Shown piece by piece: positions 1 to 51,762 of a stretch of 64,000 nucleotides of DNA. The stretch comes from Rozella allomycis CSF55 (lineage: Eukaryota): assembly GCA_000442015.1 (NCBI GenBank), contig KE561054.1, forward strand, positions 62,001 through 126,000, in the 5' to 3' direction. Each line of letters begins with the position of its first letter. Within the stretch, counting starts at the first letter, position 1. Made by a program: the position numbers and the translations under genes. The notes beneath the pieces are model-generated. The model was not told the origin of the DNA, searched no databases, and saw nothing but the letters and a program-made list of their open reading frames with translations.

Positions 1-1262
1 TTTCTTGTTCGGAGCTATGAAGAAGCAAAGAGTTGTATTGGACATCTTTGCGCTCCAGCTTTTGAATTAAAGCATCGTGCAATTTCAATTCAGAGAGCAA
101 CTTTTGCTTTAGTTTAGCGATACCATTGGCGCATTCTTTTGAAATAGCTTGGTAAAGCTTGGGGAGGTCACAACCCCAGAGAAAAAACATTTTATTTATA
201 ACTCTTTCAGGCGTTTTAGGTACTTCTTGTAAATGAACATAATTATGTTTTAATAATTTGTATAGTCTTTCTCGTACGTCTTTATTTGGCATCATCGAAT
301 ATTTCGATACCTAAGTGGCGCATATTTTGGAAAATTACTTGTTTCTCTTCAAGGTAGCCCTTATCAAGCAAAACCCTTATCATTCGAACCGATAACGAAT
401 CGAATTTGCTATTTATGACACCAAGGGCAAATTTCTTTTTGAGATATTCTTGCCCGAATGTTACATTTATTATATAGACTCCACCCCCGCTGCGATCAAT
501 CATTTTTAAAAAAGGTGTGTTTTCATGGCAAAGATGGGCAAGAAGATCTTCAAGTTTGTCAACCAACTTGAACTGCTTTTCGTTCTTACAATGCACTCGG
601 ATTTGGTCATAAGATATACTTCCTTGATCTAGTTATCGAAGAATTGTTACTTCCGATGGATCCTTTTGAGTACAGTAGATTTACAATGGATCTCATTAAG
701 CCCATGTCGCTGAGTCTCTCTTCAACTGACTTTACTAATTCTTCGAGAAAAACATAATCATCTAAGCAGGAATATTCAACTGCAACATATTCTACATTCT
801 CTAATACCACGCCCACTCCCTTCTTGGTAATTCGATCGTCTGCATTCTCCAAACTTCTCTTCTTGGATAATTCCTCTTTCAAATCCTCCCTGTCATCATC
901 AAGATCCAATTTTGCTGTAAAAATTTTAAGAATTCCAGTTTTAAGTAATCTCTCAAGTGCATTTTTATCATCTTCCACTTTGGCAAGAGGAACCCTGTGG
1001 TTTACAAAAACATTCAAAAGCAGCTTATATTCCTTTAATTACTAAATTTTATATTTACTTCATTACCAAATATTTTTCTGACTATAGATAAATACAAAGG
1101 TATACGAACCCTTTGCAAACACCTTTCAGTATTCCAGCTAAAGTCCATATTTAGTAACTCATGTTGAAATAAAGGCACCATAAAAATGTATTTATCCTTT
1201 GAGAAAGTATTCAAGGACGCGACTTCTTTTCCAAAATGCTGCTCGAGGAGGAATTTTTGCAT
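1..1262 (-). CDS. RPC82: RNA polymerase III subunit C3 (RPC82/POLR3C), 3' end runs off window
   Basis: Spliced translation gives LLEQHFG...LQRVRIPLYL at the N-terminus and KFDSLSVRMIRVLLDKGYLEEKQ|...MMPNKDVRERLYKLLKHNYVHLQEVPKTPER, matching the RPC3 winged-helix motifs. Example intron: 311-338. Confidence 0.85.
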
Positions 1263-1329: not shown

Positions 1330-3861
1330 CTATAGATATTTCGATTTAATAAGTTTGAATACAGTTTCAATGATTACTACTATTCCAATGTAGTAAACGC
1401 AATAAAAAATCATGTATATTTTTCTAATGCCAAAAAATGTAATTAAAACAGAAAATATCATAATTAGAATTTTGTTTGCTTTTGAGAATCTTTATGAAGA
1501 GCCTTTGGCCTAGCTTACCTTTGAGACTTCCTCATTATATGGCAAAGTCCTATGAAAACAAGTGAAAACATTGGTTTGTGGTCATGGAATGATATCCATG
1601 ATGCTGACAAGTTCCTAATCCAAACGGAAAGAACAACGCCATTTAATAATGCCACAAATGTGAATAAATATAGAAAAATATTCGCGTGTCCCGTCTAAAA
1701 ATTTCAACTTCATTAATTACTTTTTCAAAAGGAATCGGTGCAAATAAGAATCCCAGATACGATAACACAATTGAATATTGATAGGGAGCAAGAAATGCAA
1801 CGGCGAATTGAACAATCATCGAAATCGTGTGTCTACTTTTAAAAACTTTCAATTTTTTAATATAATGAGATATTTTGGATATAAATTGAATAATTTGCAT
1901 TACAGCCAAGGATAATCCTACACACACGAAACAGAGAATACAAGAAAGCATAAATGGAACATTAGCACCAAATAGGAAATCACTTTCAGGTGATACATAG
2001 TTTTTAATAGAATTAATGATTATTATTTGAATAGAAACATAAAACCCGGCATGGAGTAATCCTAGGCTGGAGTCTGCATACTTGTCCAGCAATACGCAAA
2101 CCAATCCAAAAACAAAAGGAAAGACAACCAAAGTAAACGAGTATCTTTTACAAATTTGAGAAACTATACTAAAGTAATCCTTTTGGTACCAAAGGCTATA
2201 CTCGCAATCGGGATTTCCATAAAAAGTCAATTGAATATGGCCGTCCAGGCTGGCTAGAAGGGGGTGAAAAAATATTAACTCTTCGTTTGCGAAATACCGA
2301 GACTCGTTACAAGTAATGCGCATAGTAAAGATACACTTGTTGGGATTTTGCACGTACAGCTTGATTGCATTCAAGTTATGGCATTGATTTTCAAGAATTA
2401 AATTATAAGAAATATGATTTTTAAGAGTTGCGTTTTGAAAATCCTTGAGAGGCAGGGACGGAGAATTTGTTTTTTGGCGGGCAAAGAAAAATTTTGAATT
2501 TGTCTCATACCATGTAAATTCAGACCAATGTACTTTCATGCCATAATACAATTCGCTCAAACTGATTTCATTTGACGCATTTTTCCCAAATAATATCAAC
2601 GTTGAGTCAAGATTAACATTATGTCTTGCCGATATATAGGTCATGTGTGGGTTGAAGGTAACTTTTGAATTTTGTGGATCATTAAGGCTATGAAGCGGCA
2701 AGAAAGTAAGTGAGAGGTGGTGAGACTCTACTGTGCAGTCAACATCTCCAGTCCTGCACAGAGCTACGTCAAAATCACGTTTAATCATCAAATTTGTTAA
2801 AATTTCGTATTTGATTCCAGGAAGAATAATGTTAGTTTTTTCTTCCACTTTGTTCAAGGATAATTCACGCCTTTCATATTCGTGTTTTACTGGTTGCTTA
2901 TCGAAGGTCATAGTGACTTCTTTATTACCCCAATGGTACTTAAATAAAGAATAAATCATGCCTTTGTATCTTAAATCGATTTTCTTTAAAATAAGAATTG
3001 TGAATCTCACAAATTGATGGCACCATACTATTTCTTGGTGCCCACATGAAGTCCAAACAAACGGGATTTCACTTAAAAAATAAGTATTTCCAAATTCAGA
3101 CCCGATAATTGAAGACTCTGAATCAATCATCGTGTCTCTCATTCCATTTGCAACAGAAATGACAGCAGCGTCATTTATGTGATATTTTCTTCCGTTGATT
3201 ATATTATAAATGAGATATGATTCATATTCAAGTGGTGCTCGAGGATGGGTATGTGGTGTTGATAACGTTAATACTAATCCAACAGACCCGGGCTTATAAG
3301 ATGGTAAAGAAAATAGCATTCTTGCGACAACTCCTCCCATTGAGTGCCCTATATACATTACTAGATGTTGAATACCGATAATAATAAATTTTTCACTGTA
3401 AAATTCTTCGAGATTTTTGATCACGTCATTTAAGTAATCTGCCTGATCTATGAGAGACCTACCATGAAAAGCAGAAAGTTCTTCATTTGTATCAACACCG
3501 TAAAAGTCAAATGTACTGTCCTGATAAAAGGCCTATATACCTTGTTATTTAGTATTACTTCTGATGCCAACGACCTCATCTGCTTGTAACTTCCAGCATT
3601 TCCGGGAATAAACAAAATCGGAATTCCCTTTTTCTAATGTATTATTATATTCTTGATTACTAAATGGTAACTATCTGTCTGCTCCTTGTACATGTACAAC
3701 GAATACTTTAAGGCATAAGCTGAAGTAATTTCAACTTTAATGTAGGTGGGTCTCATAAACGACATTTCACATTTGTCAATGTCTGATAGGTTCGTTATGT
3801 AGTTTTTAAACGACACCAAAATGACAAAAATAGTTAACCATGGAAAAATGTAAATTAACAT
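1330..3861 (-). CDS. BST1: GPI inositol-deacylase (PGAP1/Bst1)
   Basis: N-terminal TM, CEMSFMRP, PILFIPGNAGSYKQMRSLA, lipase motif GHSMGG, TLSTPH, GHQEIVWC, and multiple C-terminal TMs. Confidence 0.93.
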
Positions 3862-17574: not shown

Positions 17575-18595
17575 TTAATTTCCAATAAATTCTTTTCCAG
17601 CCTTTGGAAAAATGACGCCAGGGTCTTCAATTGGTGTGGCAGAATAATCTTCAGAAGAAGGCAAATCAGGTTCTTCCACTCGCACGCAATAAAATTGCCG
17701 AAGTGCATTCATCGCCGCCTTAAATGTCTATCGAATAATGCATTTACACTTCTGCGCGCTTGCTTTTCATTTGGCGCGAAACCTTCACCAAGCTTTTCTT
17801 CTCCAGAGTAAACTCCCATAATGTACATGGCGCTTTCAGATCCTTTACCATTTTCAGCTAGAATTCATTTACACGACAGCATTCCTATTACCTATATTCC
17901 GCCCTAGGCTTTTGTAATCGTCTCAAATGAGCAGATAAAATACTATTAACGTAATAATAATGCTTTAATGGATTATAATTCATACTCAAACGGTAACAAA
18001 AATTATTCAATATAAATTGGCGGCAAGCCAAAGCCCCCTGTCAAATTCAATGGAAAAATTTTACCCTTTCCCAGTACAATGCTCCGATCAGTGCAAGCAA
18101 TGATTGACAAGCAATTGTTTTATCAGTCAAATAGTTTTTCTAAATTGCAAAACACGTATAATTACGGGTAATCTGCAAACAACTTTTTGAACACCGTATT
18201 TCTGTGCCACATCAAAAAGCACACTATGTGTATAAAATTCACCGATAGTAGCGGTCAATGGAGCCACCGGGAGTTTTGGGTATTTGAAATAGATGTATTC
18301 CGTAATATACATTTTCAGCGCGGCTGAACCCATATAAGATAATTTTGCAAATCTAGGTAATGAATAAAGGATAATTAAACCTTGTGTTTGAAGGATCGGC
18401 ACTGGGATGTATTATGGCGTCAAGAAATCGTTTAGGAGACAATTCTTCAAGACCCATTCTTGCTGCCAATGCGTGCTCAGCTGCAGTTAGGGGTGACGCA
18501 CTGATTCTTCCTTGAAATTCCAAATTATTTGTCATAGAACGTAACCGTTCTATTTGATAAAGTTTCAGTTTCCGATGAACAGAAAGGGAAGTCAT
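17575..18595 (-). CDS. MRPL3: Mitochondrial ribosomal protein mL44 (MrpL3), RNase III-like + dsRBD; start approximate
   Basis: AIIHPS, AKLSYMG, ITEYIYFKYPKLP, ALIGALY; dsRBD AEYR|ILAENGKGSESAMYIMGVYSGEEKLGEG. Confidence 0.88.
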
Positions 18596-28000: not shown

Positions 28001-29401
28001 TTAATCCGAATCATAAAACTCTTCGTCTTTCTGAATTAATGAGTCTTTCAAACTATATGATTTCCTGTCGTCTGGATGAATTTCTATTTCTGTTTCATGT
28101 GAAAAATCACTGGGAACTATGTGCATTTGAACAGACGGAGACCCTTGCAAGTATCTGAGATACCCAATGATTTCAGATTTTAGAGAATCGAGGTATTGTC
28201 TAGTATTTAAATTGTCAATTCTTGTGGAAGTGTTAGGATGTAGTTTAAAATCAGGACCGAAAAATTCGTAATAGTCATTGTACGGAAGATCGTTGGAAAT
28301 CGGTGTGTCAACAAGAATGGAAGTCTCATAAGCCCAACAACGACTGACATTTTTTATGGTATATCCACCACCTCCTAGTACAAGACTGTTAAATATATGA
28401 TTAAATGTTACGTAGGAATTTTAAATGACTTTACAAACTGTACACATTCGCCATGCCCTTTCAAGCTAAGATTGAAACACCCCAGTCGATCGCATCCTAG
28501 AGAATCTGCGCCACATTGAAGGACGATTGCCGTTGGCTGAAAGTTTTCGATTACTGCTTGGACAATCGGCTTAAAAATGTAAGCATATCCAGCATCATCA
28601 ATACCGTTCTTTAATGGGACATTCAATGAATACATCTTTCCCTTCTCAACACCTACTTCAGATATGTCTCCAGTTCCTTTCAAAGTAGAATAAACATAGT
28701 ACCTGGGAAAAATCCATCTCCATGCTTGTGAAAAGACAATGTCATTACTCGATCGGTAGTGTAGAACGCCTCCTGTACCCCATCTCCATGATGTACATCA
28801 ATATCAATATAAAGAACCCTGGAGTGATATCTTCGCTATGACATTTCAAAGAGGTTTACTTTAAAAGTTCCAAAATCGCGAGCACTATGTCATTGACATA
28901 ACAAAACCCTGAAGCTTCAAATTTTTTGGCGTGATGCAAACTATTGTCAAAACTCATTCACTTTTTACCCTCCTGACCAATTAACTGCCACATCGCATTG
29001 TCCGTGAATTAACTTGTGAACTCCCTCGAGTGATCCACCGGAATATATACTGCAAAATTCATGCATACCAGGAAATACTGGACAATCTTCACCCATATTA
29101 AACCGCTTGAGTACGCTTGAAAAAGTATTCACGTTCTCTGGCGTGACTCTTCGGTTAAACTGATATTGCAAATGTACCTTTTTAAAAAATCTATGTAATC
29201 TGCATCATGAAATTCAAGTAGTTCTATATCTGTAGCTTTTCGCGGCCTATATACATGCATCTTTTTATGTAGACCATAATGTAGCACTAAATTGTGTGTC
29301 AACGCCAGCCTATGTGGTTTCATGGGATGACCAACGCCATAGTGAAAATTCCCAACTTCCTCGTTGTAAAAATATGCTATTTTGTCTTTAGAATGCTGCA
29401 T
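28001..29401 (-). CDS. HOS2: Class I histone deacetylase, HDAC3/Hos2 type
   Basis: [62 protein letters not shown]. Confidence 0.95.
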
Positions 29402-29443: not shown

Positions 29444-30890
29444 ATGTCAATATCCTCTTCTACAGCTAGTGTTGTTGATGTATATGATGACCTTCCTGCA
29501 AGCGAGCAAAATACTCAGGTAGTTTTTGTCTATATGTGGCAAAGAATTATGAAATAACTATAAAGGAATGCATCGATCAATGTCTAGATATACAAGGTAT
29601 TTGTTGGGACAACGAACAGATATCACGTGAAGAATTCCGGAGACACAGGTATAATGGCTTGATAATGACCCTGCAGGAGCAAAAGTTATAGAAATATGAG
29701 GTGTACAGAGAATGTCATATTCGATTACTTTGAATATACCAAGAGTTTAAATAATAATTATTTTTCATTTCACAGAACCTGCTTGAACCAAAAAACAACT
29801 TTCCTCCACTATCAATTACGTAATCTAATTGCAACCACGTCTAAAAATCGCTTAATTTATTCTGGTAATCATTTTGTGTTGTTATGTATCGAAATGACTA
29901 ACGTCATCGAATGGAATCCTGTGACTAGAGAATCCAGAATCCTTTTTGACACACAACAAAGTCAAATGTCATCAATGATGAGAATATGCTCCCTGACAAG
30001 CAAAGGAAAATATATAGTTATTGGAGGTAGTTAATCTAATCAATGTGTAAAGGCTATCAAGGAGAAATACTGGTCTGGGATAACTCGGATCTAAAAGTAT
30101 ATTCTCTATCATCAGAACCTGCCGCAATATTTACACATTTTCAATTTTCAAATTTGAGAGGTATAAAAGTGTATACCCACCAATAGATAACATTGTAGTC
30201 GCAAGTAACAATGATTCCTTTGTGAGATGGTTCGACATTTTTATGGGAACTACATCTCTAGCTATAAAGATGCCTTGGAGTGTTAATGTATTCCTGATAT
30301 TTTATATTTAAAATAAAGGCTTCAGCGTTGTCTGATTCAGAGACATCAATTGCCTGTGTCGGCGACAGCTGCGACTGTGTAATATATGACAGCCGAAATG
30401 GAAAAAGTATAAATATTTGATTTTATCGATAAGTTTCTAATACTTTATACGGTCATAGTGATTTTTGTTTTGCTATTGACTGGTCACCTTGCGGCAAATT
30501 TGTTGCTACAGGATCTCAAGATTGCACCGCTCGGTAAAGCTGATTTGTTTCAATTAAGAGAATTTATGATCTAAGAATGGCTAATAAATGCATTAATGTT
30601 ATGAAAGGAAATATAAGTGGTTTCCGAAACATAAAATTTAGTCCGGATGGGAAATATATTGCAATGTGTGAAACGGCAGATTATGTTCATCTTTATGATA
30701 CTAACGATAAATTCTCCAATGGCCAAATTATAGACTTTTTCGGTAACATTTTCATTTTGTAGAACCAGGTGAAATAACCGGATTTGATTGGAGCCGAAAT
30801 TCAGATTCATTCTTCATTGGATGCTACGATAGCGATTACGGCGGAATTATTGAATTTCAAAAAAGTAGAAATGGCATACCAATAATTTGA
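29444..30890 (+). CDS. WD40-repeat protein of the S. pombe C2A9.03 / DUF2415-like family
   Basis: DIQGICW...[69 protein letters not shown]. Confidence 0.85.
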
Positions 30891-32031: not shown

Positions 32032-33491
32032 ATGTTTTCTTGCCATATTTGCTCACGTTTAATTAGCGATAGATCCTCTTATTATACGTTTACGAAAACG
32101 CTTCTTTTAGGAGACAGATTCTTTAGATATTTTTGTGGAGACTGTCATTCAGGAGAAGAGATTTTATATAGATTAAAGCTATCATGGTAGCCATAAATAA
32201 TCTTTAAGTTAGGCTAGAAGCTGTTTTGTTGGCTCTGTGGAATTTGAATCGGCTCCAAGAATGTAACCTCTTTATCGCTGACCAAAAGCAAGCTATTCAT
32301 TTTATTTATATGCTAGGTACTATCATTCTGATCAAATATGTGAATTTATCGATAAAAATGAGCATAAATTTTGGGTTAATGGTTGTATATAATGCTTTTT
32401 GTCATCAAGGCAGCCAAGAATTCGTCAGTGATAAAGGACACTGTGGTGAAGACATTAGAAGAATTTGAGTTTAAATATTTTTTATCTAGTCGCACTACAT
32501 CATTAAAGCGTAATTATAGTAAGTTGTGCACAATAGACGGGTTATGGACTTTAGCAAATATGAATTGTCTGGACGAGATCCTCGCTGCCGAAAAAGATAC
32601 CGCTTTTGTTGTTTTACCAACTGGAGTTCTAGTTGATCCAATTAATTATAACGGGCAGGTATACGTGTATAACATGAATCATCGCAGAGCACAGTCGCTA
32701 AAAAGCTTAGCAGACGCGAAATTCTTAGCAAAACATACTCAAATTATGATTTCGATCGGCCTAATCCGTCAGGCAATGAGGTTCTGATGTGTCCACTAGC
32801 ATCTCATTCAGCTCCTCAAATTTTGTTTGAACCAAATGGAAAAACGATTTCGAATAAAAAGGTAGATATCTCAGCACGCAACAAAAGGGCTATTGTGTAG
32901 CCAAATCGACTCATGGGTTTGATTATGGCGATTTAGTTTATGAAGTCCATTTGCCTGTTGATTTTCAAGGGCACGTTAGAATAGGATGGTCGCATATTCT
33001 AGGGGATCCCCAAGCCGGGGTAGGATATGATGAATATGGATATTCAATCCGAGATAAAGATGGTCGTGCATTCCATGTTTCTAGATCCAAAGATTATGGC
33101 ACACCATTCGGTAACTACCTTATCGATGAAATATAGGTGCAGGGGACATTTTGGGTTGTGCAATAAAGATGCCGGAATTCGCCCCATCTGAGAAACAAAA
33201 TTATCTTAAAAGCTCCATAAAATCTGAATGGCCCCCTTTAAAGGAAGGAATATTCAACGTTGAAATGGATATTTTAGAAAACAGTCATATCGAATTCTTT
33301 CTAAATGGAAAAAGCCTTGGCTTAGCATTCGCACCAATATACAGAGGTATATGATAAAATTTTCTTGTTTTACAGGAAAGTATTATGCTGCTGCTTCTTT
33401 ATTTGGTGGAGCCAAAGTAGAAGTAAGGTTCAATAACCTGCAATATTCGTACCCTAATTACAAGACATTAGGCAGTGCTTTGCTTGAATAG
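32032..33491 (+). CDS. ASH2: Ash2/Bre2-like COMPASS subunit (PHD-like/WH + SPRY); start approximate
   Basis: LLGDRFFRYFCGDC, W..AVLLALWNL, ICEFIDKN, HSAPQ, KGYCVAKSTHG, GHVRIGWS, VGYDEYGYSIRD, IEFFLNGKSLGLAF. Confidence 0.85.
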
Positions 33492-33727
33492 TAATCAAGA
33501 CTTATTGAATGCTAAAATAAATATTAAAAATTTTGGATCTTTTTACATTTTTTTTTTGAAAGTGATAGCTGTATTTTTTGAAGTAATACAGTTATCGTAC
33601 AAGATGGATTTTGGCTTGGAAGAAGCTAAAATCATTTTCCCGAATATTTTTAAGAAGTACTATGTAAATTTTTAAATAAATTATTTTAAATATAAAAAAA
33701 AACATTTGGAAATATTCAAATATCAGA

Positions 33728-42951: not shown

Positions 42952-45900
42952 ATGAGTGGACCGGAGACCGAGTTGAACATATCTTCTCCCAGAGACTATC
43001 AGAGAAAATTATTCACGTATAGTTTAAATAATAATAGCATTGTTTGGCTTCCTACAGGATCTGGAAAGACTTTGATTGCATTAATGCTTCTAAAACATTA
43101 TATAGTAAAGGATATGAAAAAGAAGTGTTTCTTTTTGGTACCTACAGTTGCTTTAGGAATTCAACAATTTGAATACTTGAATGGAAATCTTCCCTGCAAG
43201 GTTTCCTTTGTTTATGGCGGTAGAAATGTAGATCAGTGGTCGAGAGAAACGTGGTATACGGAGATTGAAGAACATCAGTGTTTTGTGATGACACCGCAGT
43301 TATTTCTTGATGGCCATAGACACGCTCTCATAGACAAGTCTTTGATATCAGTTGTAGTATTCGATGAATGTCATCATGCTGTGAAAGGGCATCCATATAA
43401 ATTAATCATGAATGAATTACAAGAAAATTTAGCTAATATTCGAATTCTAGGACTATCAGCTTCACCATCGTCTGCATCGACGATTGGGACCATCGAATCA
43501 ATATATCAATCAAAGATAATAATGCCTGATGATGAAAAAGAAATGGAACAATTTTCTCCCAACCCTGATGTTACAATTTGTAGTTATTCCAACCCACTTT
43601 TGATTGTGGAAACTCGTGGCTTGGTCGATGAACTTCAGTTGGTGTTGGAAGAGTTTGGATCTGGGGGTTTAAATATAGTGATTGATCAAATGATTAAAAG
43701 AAATATAATAAAAAAGAATGAGGTATCTAACTTTGTCTACCCAATGGAACCAATATGGTCTGATAAAATAATGAAGCTAGTTGACATACTAAAGGGACAA
43801 ATGGACAATGATCCAGCCTTTAGATGCGCTATTTTTGTTAAGAAAAGGTTGTATGCTGCTGTTTTGACTGTTATTTTGGAGAAATTGTTACCTAATGTCG
43901 TTCAAGCAAGAACAGCGATGGGCTTTAGTCTTTATAAACGAAAGTCGTCGTTTGGAACACTTTTCGAGGTGGATTCAGTGAAATCGATTGATGATTTTCG
44001 ATCTGGAGTAGCGAACATTCTAGTAGCCACTAGTGTGGCTGAGGAAGGTACAAAATTGTCAAAATAGTTATAGGGATTGATATTCCACAATGCAATGTTG
44101 TTATACGATATGATTTACCAACCAATATGATATCTTTAGTCCAATCCAGGGGTAGAGCGAGACAGAAGAATAGCAAGTACATTCTTATGTTAAACACTTG
44201 TATTACCCAACATAAGAAAATGCTAGAGAAAATACACGAGGAAGAAGAGGCAATGGCAAAAGCAGCCAAAGCGAATTTGAATGAGCCCATTAAAGAGTTT
44301 GAGGTTAATAATTTGTTGGATACCACTCATTTTATATCTGAGACCACTGGCGCAAAGCTAACTCCAAGATCAGCCCTACATGTGCTTAATCGTTATTGCC
44401 AAACATTGAGTAGCGACGGGTACACCTCAAACAGACCAATCATCACTTACAAGCCAGATAATGGACGTTATCTTTGCTCAATAATACTTCCTGCCACTTC
44501 TTTAGCTAATCTTGATGACTTGCCGCCGCCTCAATCATACTCTACCAAAAAGTTGGCAAAGTCCTTTGCTGCATTTGAAATTTGTAAGATTTTATACAAA
44601 CAAGAATATTTAAATCAAAATTTGCTTCCAGATATTGATGATTTATTGAAAAAGAGGAGAGAAAGAAAGATTCTTTCATCCTCTGTCCAGTTCAACATCC
44701 AAGCCTCATTTCTGAAACATCCCGCCAATATTAATAATGATAGATTTGTTGGAATACCAATATTTAAAAAGGATAAGAATACAGGAATATCAGAATGTTT
44801 ATTTTCATTTCTTTTGTCTTGCGATAATACAAATTTAGCGTCATCTATTTTATCCCAGCTGTCCTTTGAGGCTGATTCTTGCTATATCTACGGTGGATCA
44901 CAATTTGTATTGAATGATCTCTGTGCTGAAGAAATTCGAATAATTAGACATTACACCATTACTGCCGTTTCAGTTCTGGATCCTTCCATGAGAAATGGTG
45001 ATTATTTTGATCATTCATTGCCTTACGCTATTCTACCCATGCGTGGTTGTGAAATTGATTGGCAGAGCGTTTATTCAACCATCGCGAATTCCTATTGTAT
45101 GCCAATGCCTAAAGCAGCAGACACAAATGTTATAATCTTCATGCTCGTTAGAGGTGGTGGGAAACGATTCGCTATACTGAATAAAGTCTTGCCGGAAAGG
45201 GTAGACTCACCATTACCTGAAAACATGAAAATTGTTTTGGGGAGAGAAACATTTTATGAACAACTTTCTAAAAAATATGAAAATGTTAATCCAAATGATC
45301 TTCTTGTTAATATTTCACCGATTAACCCGGCAAATTTACTATCTGAAATGGAAATCGATTGTGAAAATTCAGAAACAAAAATGACGAAAACTAAAGCATC
45401 TAGTATTCTTTCTAAACAATTTACTTGTCTTTCCATTTGTTCATTATATCCCATTACACTAAATTTCTATCATCATTTACGTTTCTTGCCTTTGGTTATA
45501 CATGGATTATCATTCAATGCCGCCATGATTCAATTTCCTTTTAAAAATTGCATTTCCAATTATTTCATTTTACGAGAGGCCTTGACTGATTGCCACATTG
45601 ATCCAAAATTTAATTACGAGAGACTCGAGACTCTTGGCGATTCAGTCTTGAAATTCTTAACTTCTATTCATGTCTTTACCGAAAATCCTACAAAATCGGA
45701 AGGGTTTTTGACTGTCTGGAAAGATAATATTGTTTGCAATCATAATTTATGCATTTTATCTAAAAATAATCAATTTAATAAATATTTAATTAGCTCCAAT
45801 TTTACTACAGGAAAAAAGTGGAAAAGCCCTGGCTTTGCTACTGATAAACATGTTGGATCCTTTCGAATAAATGATAAAAGGCTTTCTGATTTGGTAGAGT

Positions 45901-46927
45901 CACTTCTAGGCGCTTCTTACATTGACGGTGGCTTTACGAACTGCTTAAACTTTCTTGGCATTATTAATATCTATAAAACATCAATACCTAAATCAATGGA
46001 CATTTATTATCAAAATGCTTATAAATCAATTTTATTTGGCAGTCAGGTAGATATATCAGATTACCAGGGGCTGCTCTTAGCCCTAAGCAAAGCTTTGGGT
46101 GTGGCAGAGTTTCCTACTGAATTTTATAGATTATTTCTTCAATCAATCAGTCATCCGTCTAATATTAATGGTACTGGATCTTTGCAGCGTTTAGAATTCT
46201 TAGGAGATCCTGTCTTGGACTTTACAATTACAGAACATCTATTTTTGCATTCATATACTCTATCTACCCTTCAAATGACAATTTTGCGTTCAAATTTTGT
46301 TAATCAAGTGATTCTTGGTCATCTCTCATTTGAACTCGGACTGCCTCAACTCTTAATACATGCAAACGAATCAATCAGCAGTATCAACGCCACTTTCAAA
46401 AAGGCTCGTAATTCTAAAAGTGTATTTGAAAAGCCTCCCATTATAAACGCAAAATCAATCAAAGAAGCATGGCTAAACATGTTCAAGCCCCCTTTGCCGC
46501 CAAAACTTTACTGCGATATTTACGAATCTGTTCTTGGTGCATACTTTTTGTCTTATGGCTGGGAAGCAGCAAAAGCTTTAATCCATAAACATTTCAAAAA
46601 GTTATTTGACTTATTTCTTCATCCAGATATTTACATACCGAGTAAACTATTTATCAATTGATTATAGGATTCCCTGCTATTGGTTATTTGGAACACAAAT
46701 TTGGCAAAGAATTGTTGCTCCATTTTTTTGAAGTTCCTTTGGATGCCGATGAAAATTGGGTTGTCACTAATATTGAATCTCTAAAAGCCTCTGAATCAAG
46801 GGGAGATAAATTCTGTAGCATTGGGTATTTCAAAGGAGAATTAATCGGGGTTTTCTTTTCTTTTGGTTGCAAGCGTGACGTGGAAATAGCTATATCTGTG
46901 TGCATAATGGAAAAATACATGAAATAA
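42952..46927 (+). CDS. Dicer (DExH helicase, DUF283, PAZ-like region, RNase IIIa + IIIb)
   Basis: PRDYQ, LPTGSGKT, FDECHHA, ATSVAEEGIDIP, QSRGRAR, LNRYCQTL, NYERLETLGDSVLK/SDLVESLLGA, QRLEFLGDPVLD/DIYESVLGA. Confidence 0.95.
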
Positions 46928-49687: not shown

Positions 49688-50987
49688 ATGTCTTCATTCA
49701 CCATAGAAAATATTGGCGGCATCACTTTTAAGGTGCCCGCCAGATATAGATTGATTTCAAGAATCGGACAAGGTGCATATGGCTATGTCGTGTAATTTAT
49801 TCCAATCTTTTTAAATAGTAACGGTTATGATCAAACAGCACATTCTTATGTTGCTATCAAAAAGTTGTCAAATATTACAACTAGCATAAACGACCTTAAA
49901 AGAATATACCGAGAATTGGAAATTATTAAACAGCTAAATCATGAAAATGTAACAATATATCACAACTTTTACGTGTCAGATACTTAAAGTAGACGCAGCA
50001 TTTGTATCGGAAAGTTACGCCAGTTTTGAAGATATATATCTAGTTTCTGAATTGATGGATATGGATCTACATCAATTAATTTCCTCCAAGCAAAATTTAT
50101 CTTATGATCATTGTATTTTTATATCTTATCAGATTGCCCGGGCATTGAAATACTTGCACTCAGCAAATATCATTCACAGAGATTTAAAACCTTCGAATAT
50201 ATTAATCAACATGAATTGTGACGTAAAGGTATGGTTCCTACTAGTAGTTTAATAGCTGGGTGATTTTGGTCTTGCTAGGGACTTAAATGTACATTTAAAT
50301 CAAGATGATAAACAACAAATGTCTGGATACATAGCCACAAGGTGGTATAGAGCACCTGAAATAATATTTCAGGTGAAAAAGTATACAACCGCGAGTATGT
50401 TCATGATTTGACTTTTGTATAGTTGATATATTTTCTTTTGGGTGTATTATGTTTGAAATATTTACTGGCACTCCGCTAATGCCAGGTCGAACTAGTACGA
50501 TTTTTCATTTAAACGGACAGCTATGCATCAAATAAAATTAATGATTCAAACATTGGGATCTCAAGATTTAGAAATATTCCGCACAGCTGAAAATCAAGAT
50601 GTACGGATGTATATTACAAATTGATCACAGATATTTAAAGTTGCTGCAAGCTTTTGTAATAATAAAGAAGAGCCTGGAATGAATAAACTTTTATTGTCTC
50701 TTCCTTTACATGCCAGAAACGTTATCAAAGGATGCCTAGAATTGAATCCGGACAAGCGATTTGATTCCAATGCGCTCATCAAGAACCCTTTCTTTCAAGT
50801 ATTTCATGATCCAAATGATGAGGTAAATGTATATTGATCAAGTTTTAGCCTTCCTGCGCCAATTATAAAATTTCTTCGGATATTCCAAATGATGTTACTA
50901 GATATGACATGAAGAGTAAGGTTATAGACTATTTTGACAAAAGGCCGCGTTTATAATCTTATTCAAAAATTCAATAAAAATTTGTAA
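49688..50987 (+). CDS. MAP kinase (p38/Hog1/ERK-like) with SGY activation motif
   Basis: [52 protein letters not shown] docking site. Confidence 0.93.
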
Positions 50988-50994
50988 TTTTCTA

Positions 50995-51762
50995 ATGATC
51001 AGACCAGCTTCTTCTATCGTTACCGTTTTTGTTGACTGTGAGAACTCATCTTCTGAAAGGAGATTCGATAGATCAATCACTATATTTGAATTAAAGGTTG
51101 AATACTCGTTGTTTCTCATATAGGGTAAGCTAGAACCGATTACTGGCATACCTCTGTCATCTATGCATGTAACGTTGGTTACTTCAACAAATAAAAATGG
51201 TCTTCCGTTGTTAAATGAAGAAGCTTACCTAGGGGCATATCCAGTAGAAGATTATTCAAAGCTTCAAGTCATTGATCTTAACCCGGACAGGATTAAGGGC
51301 TCTTTTACTGATACGTCTCAAGTTAAAAAATTTGAAATAACAGATGAAGAGTATTCGAAGAGAACTGATTCTGTAAGAGCCTTTAAAGAAAGAAACAAAT
51401 TGGGGCGTTTTGCTGAACCTACAGAAGAGACTGTAAAAATTCAAGCAGAATATAAGAAACTTGCAATGGAAATTCAAATTGGAAATAGATGCGAGGTGGA
51501 CTCTGAAGGAATATTAAAACGAGGCACAATTAAGTTTGTGGGCGAAACAGAGTTTAAACCAGGTGTTTGGGTTGGGATTGAGTTTGATGAGCCCGTTGGG
51601 AAACATGATGGATCGTAATTATTTATTTTTTTACAGAAAAGTGTTCAAGGCATCGCATATTTTGCGGCGAAGAAAAACCACGGCGCGTTTGTGAGACCAA
51701 CAAATGTCAAAGTAGGGGATTTTCCAGAAAAAGATATTTTTGAAGAATTAGAAGAATTGTAA
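50995..51762 (+). CDS. ALF1: Tubulin-folding cofactor B (UBL + CAP-Gly)
   Basis: SERRFD...LKGKLEPITGIP, VKKFEITDEEYSKRTDSVRAFK, WVGIEFDEPVGKHDGSVQG. Confidence 0.95.

What the first reader, a model, noticed from the sequence alone, without database searches (positions are those of the whole stretch)
51615..51641. Ruler-like acceptor choice: a perfect poly(T)-CAG is skipped for a distal AAG
Seen: in TBCB, GTAATTATTTATTTTTTTACAG (22 nt) is a textbook acceptor but frameshifts the CAP-Gly domain. The conserved GKHDGS|VQG needs AAG at 27 nt. HDAC3 intron 28831-28859 likewise skips TAG at 24 nt for AAG at 29 nt to give [15 protein letters not shown]. Inference: the 3' site is set by distance from the donor (minimum about 25-26 nt), which would also explain the TG/CG acceptors.
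Basis: partly seen in the sequence, partly recalled or inferred. Interest (0 to 1): 0.78.

Follow-up and report, generated by a model that had tools for sequence, protein, structure and literature searches.

The report
Rozella's tiny introns ignore near AGs
In this fungus-like parasite almost every intron is only 26 to 29 bases long, and the cell appears to cut at the first AG that lies at least 26 bases from the intron start, so a perfect-looking site at 22 bases is passed over.

Summary
TBCB intron 51615-51641 is GT..AAG and 27 nt long. Solved CAP-Gly chains, 19 homologues and the public gene model all require exactly 27 nt to be removed. The poly(T)-CAG ending at 22 nt would shift the frame. 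The HDAC3 intron 28831-28859(-) likewise skips a TAG at 24 nt for an AAG at 29 nt.

The window matches two Rozella allomycis CSF55 proteins at 100% identity. ORF-joining scans with no length prior show a sharp intron class of 26-29 nt. GTA donors give 5 candidates at 25 nt; 42, 30, 25 and 26 at 26-29 nt; and 3 at 30 nt.

The rule "first AG ending at 26 nt or more from the donor" fits best at exactly 26. All 14 homology- or model-supported introns obey it. AGs ending at 20-25 nt occur in 18 of 115 introns, at near-background frequency.

I found no branch-point motif. The only interior signal is an A at position 23 from the donor, in every length class. Both skipped AGs lie upstream of it or over it.

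My reading: a donor-anchored branch site, followed by the first usable AG. TG/CG acceptors show no excess. No RNA data were available. This is a new member of the known tiny-intron kind.

The parts
51615..51641 (+). TBCB intron 2: GT..AAG, 27 nt, phase 2, with an in-frame TAA at 51616-51618
51634..51636 (+). Unused CAG behind a T-run, ending 22 nt from the donor (decoy acceptor)
   Evidence: its use shifts the frame; one of 18 such decoys in 115 introns
51637..51637 (+). A at intron position 23, the candidate branch adenosine (inferred, not mapped)
51639..51641 (+). The AAG acceptor that is used; first AG ending at 26 nt or more from the donor
51097..51123 (+). TBCB intron 1: GTT..TAG, 27 nt, phase 0, with an in-frame TAG
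   Evidence: 9-residue gap in 19 homologue alignments
50995..51762 (+). TBCB gene: exons 50995-51096, 51124-51614 and 51642-51762 (stop at 51760-51762); 237 aa
28831..28859 (-). HDAC3 intron 3: GT..AAG, 29 nt. The unused TAG occupies intron positions 22-24 (28836-28838). The A at position 23 is 28837.
28386..29177 (-). The other HDAC3 introns in the public model: 29149-29177 (29 nt), 28941-28968 (28), 28677-28702 (26), 28386-28411 (26)
44048..44073 (+). Dicer intron, 26 nt. An in-frame TAG ending at 20 nt is not used.
   Evidence: Helicase_C profile position 77 on the last upstream residue and 79 on the first downstream residue, with one split codon between
50229..50255 (+). MAPK-like kinase intron, 27 nt. 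The public model uses an in-frame 33-nt alternative, 50223-50255.
   Evidence: 7w5c_A 167|168, 6hkn_A 144|145
3533..3558 (-). PGAP1 intron, 26 nt, with A at position 23. It explains away the apparent 20-nt candidates nearby.

Best explanation
The window is Rozella allomycis nuclear DNA. Its spliceosomal introns are packed against a minimum length. Nearly all begin with GTA, end with AG and are 26-29 nt long.

TBCB intron 2 is an ordinary member of this class. The acceptor used is the first AG whose G lies at least 26 nt from the donor G. AGs nearer than that are not used, however good their context looks.

The most likely mechanism has two steps. First, the branch site is placed by distance from the 5' splice site rather than by a sequence motif: an adenosine at about position 23. 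Second, the next AG at least 3 nt downstream is taken. The TBCB CAG (positions 20-22) lies upstream of A23. The HDAC3 TAG (positions 22-24) contains A23. Neither can therefore serve as the 3' site.

Shown here: the intron boundaries, the 26-nt threshold, the lack of a branch motif, and the donor-anchored A. Inferred: that A23 is the branch point, and that the narrow 26-29 window reflects shrinkage against this lower limit.
For: Identity: P0122 'histone deacetylase 3 [Rozella allomycis CSF55]' and P0241 '[Rozella allomycis CSF55]' match window exons at 100%.

Boundaries: see the observation check.

Length class:
- GT..AG candidates that join open, coding-like frames peak at 26-29 nt. With 40-codon flanks the counts are 8 at 25 nt; 33, 23, 23 and 21 at 26-29; and 4 at 30.
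- With GTA donors the counts are 5; 42, 30, 25 and 26; and 3.
- A length-agnostic dynamic-programming parse gives 35, 25, 16 and 22 at 26-29 nt, against 1 at 25 nt.

Threshold: compatibility with the reading frame is highest at T=26.

All 14 introns fixed by homology or public models obey 'first AG >=26'. 7 decoy AGs, in 5 of these introns, end at positions 8-24.

No AG ends at positions 26 to L-2 in any of the 115 introns.

Decoy AGs are not depleted: 3.0 per position at 20-25 against 4.1 per position at 5-19.

The interior information content is about 0 bits, except at position 23 and position -4.

A at position 23:
- By length class (26, 27, 28, 29 nt) it is 27/40, 20/29, 11/25 and 13/21, against a background of 33%.
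- In classes where position 23 is not also position -4, it is 44/75 (p=4.7e-6). In the 68 introns called by both methods it is 28/39 (p=1.3e-6).
- G at position 23 occurs in 6 of 115 introns.

In-frame alternatives resolved by homology fall inside the 26-29 window: Dicer 26 rather than 20, and MAPK 27 rather than 33.

Precedent: in myxobolids and Dicyema, weak A residues lie further from the AG the longer the intron is (PMC13644364, main text read).
Against: - There is no RNA or lariat evidence. No RNA holder was listed, so actual use of the skipped AGs cannot be excluded.
- Only one 64-kb window was available, giving about 100 introns called from open reading frames, and some are false positives: 14 of 115 failed a strand filter.
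- A23 is absent from about a quarter to a third of introns, including 4 of the 14 best-supported ones.
- In 26-nt introns position 23 is also position -4, which is itself A-rich in the longer classes (39/75). The two signals therefore cannot be separated in the largest class.
- A branch A only 3 nt from the 3' G leaves a single nucleotide between it and the AG. That is shorter than the 5-nt spacing reported for Stentor (PMC9505925, passages) and may be sterically hard.
- In TBCB the A at position 19 (TTTAC) fits the mammalian yUnAy pattern (recalled, from no call) and would explain the skip equally well.
Confidence: 0.6

Rival explanations
1. A pure donor-to-acceptor ruler. The spliceosome cannot join ends closer than 26 nt, whatever the position of the branch site. 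The A at position 23 is incidental or belongs to the acceptor context.
For: - The threshold at 26 is sharp.
- No branch motif was found.
- Position -4 is A-rich on its own (39/75), and in the largest class (26 nt) it coincides with position 23.
Against: - A at position 23 stays enriched in the 27-29 nt classes, where it is not position -4 (44/75, p=4.7e-6; 28/39 in the stricter set).
- The 29-nt class shows two separate A peaks, at position 23 (13/21) and at position 26 = -4 (11/21), with a dip between them (6/21 and 7/21).
- Every spliceosomal intron needs a branch nucleophile (established knowledge), so some placement rule must exist.
Confidence: 0.2
2. A classical 3'-anchored branch site with a minimum branch-to-AG spacing. 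In TBCB the branch would be A19 in TTTAC, so the CAG 1-3 nt downstream is too close and the next AG, 8 nt away, is taken. The apparent donor ruler is then a by-product of uniformly short introns.
For: - TTTAC at positions 15-20 of the TBCB intron fits yUnAy (recalled pattern; sequence).
- In HDAC3 intron 3 the A at position 21 (TCAT) is also 8 nt from the end.
- In Stentor the putative branch A keeps a fixed distance from the 3' end (PMC9505925, passages).
Against: - Aligned at the 3' end, positions -5 to -8 show no significant A enrichment once position 23 is set aside: 29/86, 36/90, 39/94 and 32/115.
- Interior information content is about 0, and C is not enriched after the A.
- A 3'-anchored model does not explain why position 23 stays A-rich as the length changes.
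Confidence: 0.12
3. The near AGs are in fact used part of the time. This would give frameshifted or two-to-three-residue-longer transcripts that are degraded or tolerated. On this view the rule describes only the productive isoform.
For: - No RNA data could be examined.
- All 4 decoy AGs ending at position 20 in the filtered set are in frame with the used site, as would be expected if out-of-frame decoys there were costly.
- Splicing of short microsporidian introns is reported as inefficient (PMC13644364 introduction, read).
Against: - Overall, decoys at 20-25 are not biased toward being in frame (5 of 12; 4 expected) and are not clearly depleted.
- The Dicer in-frame decoy at position 20 would insert two residues into the conserved Helicase_C motif.
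Confidence: 0.08

Closest known systems
Ultra-short introns of myxobolid myxozoans and Dicyema japonicum (Hadjez et al. 2026, PMC13644364; main text read, supplementary logos not seen)
   Same: - Median length is under 30 nt.
- Signals are reduced to GTA...AG, with no pyrimidine tract.
- There are weak A residues whose distance from the AG grows with intron length, that is, A's anchored to the donor.
   Different: - Those are animals; this is a holomycotan parasite.
- Here the A is a single position (23), and the acceptor rule (first AG at 26 nt or more, decoys ignored) is stated and tested. That paper, as far as I read it, makes no such claim.
Paramecium tetraurelia and P. bursaria introns, about 25 nt (abstracts and listings; PMC12862383 passages)
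   Same: Tiny GT-AG introns in very large numbers and with a narrow size range.
   Different: - A different lineage and a different genetic code; here TAA is a stop codon.
- No branch or ruler statement was found in the passages I read.
- Selection against 3n introns without stops in Paramecium is recalled from no call and was not tested here.
Stentor coeruleus 15-16 nt introns (PMC9505925, passages)
   Same: GTA donor, no branch consensus, and a positionally fixed putative branch A.
   Different: In Stentor the A is at position 10 of 15 nt and 11 of 16 nt, so it keeps its distance to the 3' end. Here it keeps its distance to the 5' end. Intron length is 15-16 nt against 26-29 nt.
Mikrocytid introns of 16-17 nt (PMC10245619, abstract and passages)
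   Same: [quoted passage not shown]
   Different: Those are reported as conserved in sequence. Rozella intron interiors carry almost no information.
Encephalitozoon cuniculi (Microsporidia) introns of 22-76 nt (PMC3629993, passages; PMC6349667)
   Same: The sister lineage, with short GT-AG introns.
   Different: [quoted passage not shown]
- Rozella has many introns without such motifs. Whelan et al. 2018 already noted two ~30-nt Rozella S23 introns that lack those motifs.
Branch-to-AG scanning and the AG exclusion zone of yeast and mammalian introns (recalled textbook knowledge; no paper read here)
   Same: The first AG downstream of the branch is used, AGs upstream of the branch are invisible, and no AG lies between the branch and the acceptor (0 found at positions 26 to L-2).
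   Different: - Here the branch would be placed by distance from the donor, with no motif and no pyrimidine tract.
- The branch-to-AG spacing would be only 3-6 nt.

Membership tests
U2-type GT-AG spliceosomal intron | GT at the 5' end and AG at the 3' end | tested here: met
   TBCB intron 2 is GT..AG, and shifting the 27-nt cut by one base gives TA..GT. Only AG is enriched as the terminal dinucleotide at 26-29 nt.
U2-type GT-AG spliceosomal intron | Removal restores a conserved, uninterrupted protein | tested here: met
   Adjacent residues of the solved chains are joined. 19 homologues show a 9-residue gap. The public models agree.
U2-type GT-AG spliceosomal intron | A branch adenosine upstream of the acceptor | tested here: inconclusive
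   There is no motif. A is enriched at position 23, but no branch was mapped.
U2-type GT-AG spliceosomal intron | Spliced form seen in RNA | not testable with these tools
   No RNA holder was listed. The one run laid gave only 12 short pieces that did not fit.
Ultra-short, length-constrained introns (Paramecium, Stentor, mikrocytids, myxobolids, Dicyema) | Typical length under about 30 nt with a very narrow distribution | tested here: met
   Peak at 26-29 nt with a sharp edge at 26.
Ultra-short, length-constrained introns (Paramecium, Stentor, mikrocytids, myxobolids, Dicyema) | Splice signals reduced to GTA...AG with no pyrimidine tract | tested here: met
   Position-specific counts for 115 introns. 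Caveat: set S was selected for GTA donors. Non-GTA donors show no excess at 26-29 nt.
Ultra-short, length-constrained introns (Paramecium, Stentor, mikrocytids, myxobolids, Dicyema) | Deficit of 3n introns that lack in-frame stops | not tested
   My intron calls require the read-through frame to be interrupted, so stop-free 3n introns cannot be seen. Both TBCB introns are 3n and carry a stop.
Branch-to-AG scanning / AG exclusion zone | No AG between the branch site and the acceptor used; AGs upstream are tolerated | tested here: met
   0 AGs end at positions 26 to L-2 in 115 introns. 46 of 115 have an AG ending at positions 12-25.
Non-AG (TG/CG) acceptors set by distance alone | Excess of ORF-compatible 26-29 nt candidates ending in TG or CG | tested here: not met
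   TG 11 against 15.4 expected, CG 3 against 5.3, AG 102 against 17.5.

The most novel reading that the evidence does not exclude
Rozella's spliceosome measures rather than reads. It places the branch nucleophile about 23 nt from the 5' splice site with no branch sequence and no pyrimidine tract. It then accepts only an AG in a window 3 to about 9 nt further on. This would be a natural, genome-wide 'ruler' form of intron definition in the sister lineage of Microsporidia, and the logic would differ from the 3'-anchored branch of Stentor.
Probability: 0.35. Interest if true: 0.65.

Novelty: new member of a known kind. Interest (0 to 1): 0.45.

Why it matters
It gives a simple, testable rule for splice-site choice in a genome with almost no intron sequence signals: GTA, an A near position 23, then the first AG at 26 nt or more.

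The rule already exposes errors in public gene models in this window: a 33-nt intron where homology supports 27 nt, and a fused kinase-TBCB model.

If branch mapping confirms a donor-anchored branch, Rozella would be a fungal-side example of distance-based intron definition. It could be compared with myxozoans, dicyemids and ciliates, and it would bear on how introns shrank on the way to Microsporidia.

The skipped CAG itself is ordinary for this genome.

Tried and rejected
- **Whole genome:** none is held for this window, so all statistics come from 64 kb.
- **RNA evidence:** no RNA holder was listed. The one metatranscriptome run offered (X1) laid only 12 short pieces at 90-99% likeness, with no joint at any intron.
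- **Metagenome scan with the TBCB exon:** 8 loci, none closer than 55% identity, so no second copy of this organism was found. They were useful only for intron-position comparison.
- **Branch-point motif:** none in 115 introns aligned at either end.
- **TG/CG acceptors:** no excess.
- **My dynamic-programming gene parser:** it chains neighbouring genes. It also often picks in-frame alternatives of the wrong length, for example 16 and 41 nt in HDAC3 where the public model has 28 and 29. I used it only as a length-agnostic check and as a filter.
- **Apparent introns under 26 nt in the strict list:** on inspection they overlap a 26-29 nt candidate, or lie antisense to or inside a longer ORF. I left one 25-nt GTG-donor candidate (33475-33499) unresolved. 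The PGAP1 '20-nt' case is coding sequence next to a 26-nt intron.
- **In-frame decoys:** the dsRBD junction at 17719-17747(-), the WD40 junction at 30743 and the RPC82 junction at 623-650(-) could not be resolved by Pfam.
- **Rfam:** no hit in the window.
- **Literature:** James et al. 2013, which I recall as the Rozella genome paper, is not held. Three searches naming Rozella with intron terms that required all their terms turned up only one passage I read that describes short nuclear introns in Rozella: Whelan et al. 2018, about 30 nt.

Full report
**What is at the coordinates**

Window 51615-51641(+) reads GTAATTATTTATTTTTTTACAGAAAAG. It interrupts a tubulin-folding cofactor B (TBCB) gene inside the CAP-Gly motif.

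- Removing the 27 nt (GT..AAG, phase 2) gives ...GKHDGS|VQGIAYFAAKKNHGAFVRP... through to a TAA stop.
- Using the CAG that ends at position 22 gives a frameshift and an early stop.

The junction is fixed by homology.

- The upstream exon aligns to solved CAP-Gly chains up to residue 60 of 1lpl_A, 63 of 1tov_A, 81 of 1whg_A and 52 of 4b6m_A. The downstream exon starts at residues 61, 64, 82 and 53.
- Both TBCB introns are 27 nt and in frame, so tblastn lays whole homologues across the gene. It opens a 9-residue gap at each intron in 19 of the 20 homologues tried. The 20th alignment starts after intron 1, spans intron 2 and was not printed.

The HDAC3 example is also as described. 28831-28859(-) is GTAAACCTCTTTGAAATGTCATAGCGAAG, 29 nt, with an unused TAG ending at position 24.

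**Whose DNA it is**

An HDAC exon finds 'histone deacetylase 3 [Rozella allomycis CSF55]' (P0122) at 100% identity. The TBCB exon finds a 523-aa Rozella allomycis CSF55 protein (P0241) at 100%.

Threading both proteins through the window shows that the public models already use the 27-nt AAG intron in TBCB and the 29-nt AAG intron in HDAC3.

GC content is about 35%, and TAA is used as a stop codon.

**How general the skip is**

I scanned both strands for GT..AG pairs of 12-150 nt that join two open, coding-like frames and whose read-through is interrupted. No length prior was used.

- Candidates sit at a flat background except for a peak at 26-29 nt. With 40-codon flanks the counts are 8 at 25 nt; 33, 23, 23 and 21 at 26-29; and 4 at 30.
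- With GTA donors and 25-codon flanks the counts are 5; 42, 30, 25 and 26; and 3.
- A crude dynamic-programming parser, also without a length prior, gives 1 at 25 nt and 35, 25, 16 and 22 at 26-29 nt.

To locate the threshold objectively, I asked for how many donors the first AG ending at T or later is compatible with the reading frame. The count rises slowly from 122 of 414 at T=12 to a maximum of 148 at T=26, then falls to 126 at T=27.

A few introns of 30-32 nt exist. The eight I inspected have no AG ending between position 26 and their own acceptor, and one has an unused AG ending at 25 (listing, read by eye).

All 14 introns fixed by homology or public models obey 'first AG at 26 or later'. 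7 decoy AGs, in 5 of these introns, end at positions 8-24.

**Decoys**

Set S holds 115 GTA-donor introns of 26-29 nt, each the only such candidate at its junction.

- AG dinucleotides are spread evenly over the interior: 61 end at positions 5-19 (4.1 per position) and 18 at positions 20-25 (3.0 per position).
- None ends at position 23, and none at positions 26 to L-2.
- 18 of 115 introns have a decoy AG ending at 20-25, and 12 of those are YAG.
- A strand filter removes 14 probable false positives. One of these lies antisense inside TBCB. That leaves 12 of 101 introns with such a decoy, 7 of them out of frame with the used site.

Two in-frame ambiguities could be settled by homology.

- In Dicer, the last upstream residue sits at Helicase_C profile position 77 and the first downstream residue at 79. 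Only the one split codon of the 26-nt intron fits between them. The 20-nt alternative would add two more residues (the upstream match alone is weak, E=0.031).
- In the MAPK-like kinase, the exon ending ...NCDVK aligns up to 7w5c_A residue 167 and the next exon starts at 168. The MAPK7 chain 6hkn_A gives 144|145. This supports the 27-nt intron 50229-50255 rather than the public model's 33 nt.

So the TBCB CAG is one of many ignored AGs and is not a special case.

**Looking for a branch site**

I aligned the 115 introns at either end. Only GTA(A), the terminal AG, position -4 (A in 66 of 115) and position 23 from the donor (A in 71 of 115) carry information. Every other interior column is at about 0 bits, and there is no pyrimidine tract.

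Split by length class (26, 27, 28 and 29 nt):

| Measure | 26 nt | 27 nt | 28 nt | 29 nt |
|---|---|---|---|---|
| A at position 23 | 27/40 | 20/29 | 11/25 | 13/21 |

The background A frequency is 33%.

- Leaving out the 26-nt class, where position 23 is also position -4, A23 is 44/75 (p=4.7e-6).
- In the 68 introns called by both of my methods, it is 28/39 (p=1.3e-6).
- Position -4, where it is not position 23, is weaker (39/75 and 20/39). Positions -5 to -8 are at background.
- G is rare at position 23 (6 of 115).
- Among the 14 best-supported introns, 10 have A at position 23.

In TBCB, position 23 is the A just after the CAG (51637). In HDAC3 it is the A of the skipped TAG (28837).

**Reading**

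The empirical rule holds in this window: the acceptor is the first AG at 26 nt or more from the donor, and nearer AGs are ignored.

The best mechanistic reading is that the ruler acts on the branch site. An adenosine about 23 nt from the 5' splice site is chosen by position and not by motif. The first AG at least 3 nt downstream then becomes the acceptor. AGs upstream of the branch or overlapping it are invisible, as in ordinary branch-to-AG scanning (recalled textbook knowledge).

The narrow upper side of the distribution fits introns that have shrunk against this limit. That last point is inference.

Caveats:
- The branch is not mapped.
- In 26-nt introns A23 would lie only 3 nt from the 3' G.
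- A quarter to a third of introns lack A23.
- In TBCB, A19 in TTTAC is an alternative branch that would explain the skip equally well.

**Related sequences**

No close relative of this organism was found in the metagenome collection (best 55% identity).

One distant fungal locus, L001, has an intron at the same codon and phase (phase 2 after GKHDG). That intron is about 80 nt long and has a classical pyrimidine tract and TAG. Seven other loci read the motif without interruption. The intron position therefore appears older than its miniaturisation.

**Literature**

Tiny, narrowly sized introns are known in:
- Paramecium, about 25 nt (listing);
- Stentor, 15-16 nt, with a putative branch A at position 10 or 11, so fixed relative to the 3' end (PMC9505925, passages);
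- mikrocytids, 16-17 nt (PMC10245619, abstract and passages);
- myxobolid myxozoans and Dicyema, 22-27 nt (PMC13644364, main text).

The last paper reports GTA...AG signals and weak A residues that lie further from the AG the longer the intron is. That is the same donor-anchored pattern seen here.

For Rozella, the only passage I read that describes short nuclear introns is one remark that two S23 introns are about 30 nt and lack the microsporidian motifs (PMC6349667; searches). Another paper gives only the intron density, 2.5 per kb (PMC8476143). What I recall as the Rozella genome paper is not held, and supplements were not available, so I cannot say that the length class is unpublished. It is implicit in the public gene models.

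**Verdict**

The rule is best understood through a donor-anchored branch site, which remains to be mapped.

The skipped CAG is ordinary for this genome. The genome-wide rule makes Rozella a new member of the known class of ultra-short-intron organisms, and the rule is useful for annotation.

No RNA evidence could be obtained here.

Noticed in passing
49688-51762 (+): The public Rozella model P0241 (523 aa) fuses the MAPK-like kinase with TBCB through a 301-nt 'intron' at 50823-51123. This drops TBCB exon 1 (50995-51096) and the kinase C-terminus. 19 homologues align to the dropped TBCB exon.
   Followed up: partly
50223-50255 (+): The public model uses a 33-nt intron here, which deletes two residues (VK) just before the DFG motif. 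Contiguity with solved MAPK chains (7w5c_A 167|168) supports the 27-nt intron 50229-50255.
   Followed up: yes
L001:781-920: A distant fungal TBCB on a metagenome contig has an ~80-nt intron, with a pyrimidine tract and TAG, at the same codon and phase as the Rozella 27-nt intron. Loci L002-L008 have no intron there.
   Followed up: partly
51097-51123 and 51615-51641 (+): Both TBCB introns are exactly 27 nt (a multiple of three) and each carries an in-frame stop codon, so retaining either would truncate the protein. Whether 3n introns without stops are avoided genome-wide could not be tested.
   Followed up: no
30743-30768, 44048-44073, 50823-50848 (+); 17719-17747 (-): All four decoy AGs that end at intron position 20 are in frame with the used acceptor. 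Candidate counts also show a small bump at 20 nt (10 against 4-7 at neighbouring lengths). The numbers are small and this is unexplained. The Dicer case was resolved in favour of 26 nt.
   Followed up: partly
3533-3558 (-): The PGAP1 gene has a 26-nt intron here (A at position 23, internal AG ending at 18), flanked by a 25-codon exon that my flank filter missed. The nearby '20-nt intron' candidates at 3439-3462 are coding sequence.
   Followed up: yes
42952-46661 (+): A Dicer-like gene (DEAD/ResIII helicase, Helicase_C, Dicer dimerisation domain, two RNase III domains) is present, split by one 26-nt intron.
   Followed up: no
16222, 33968, 55253: There are three single N bases in the window. 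No Rfam family reaches its gathering score anywhere in the 64 kb.
   Followed up: no
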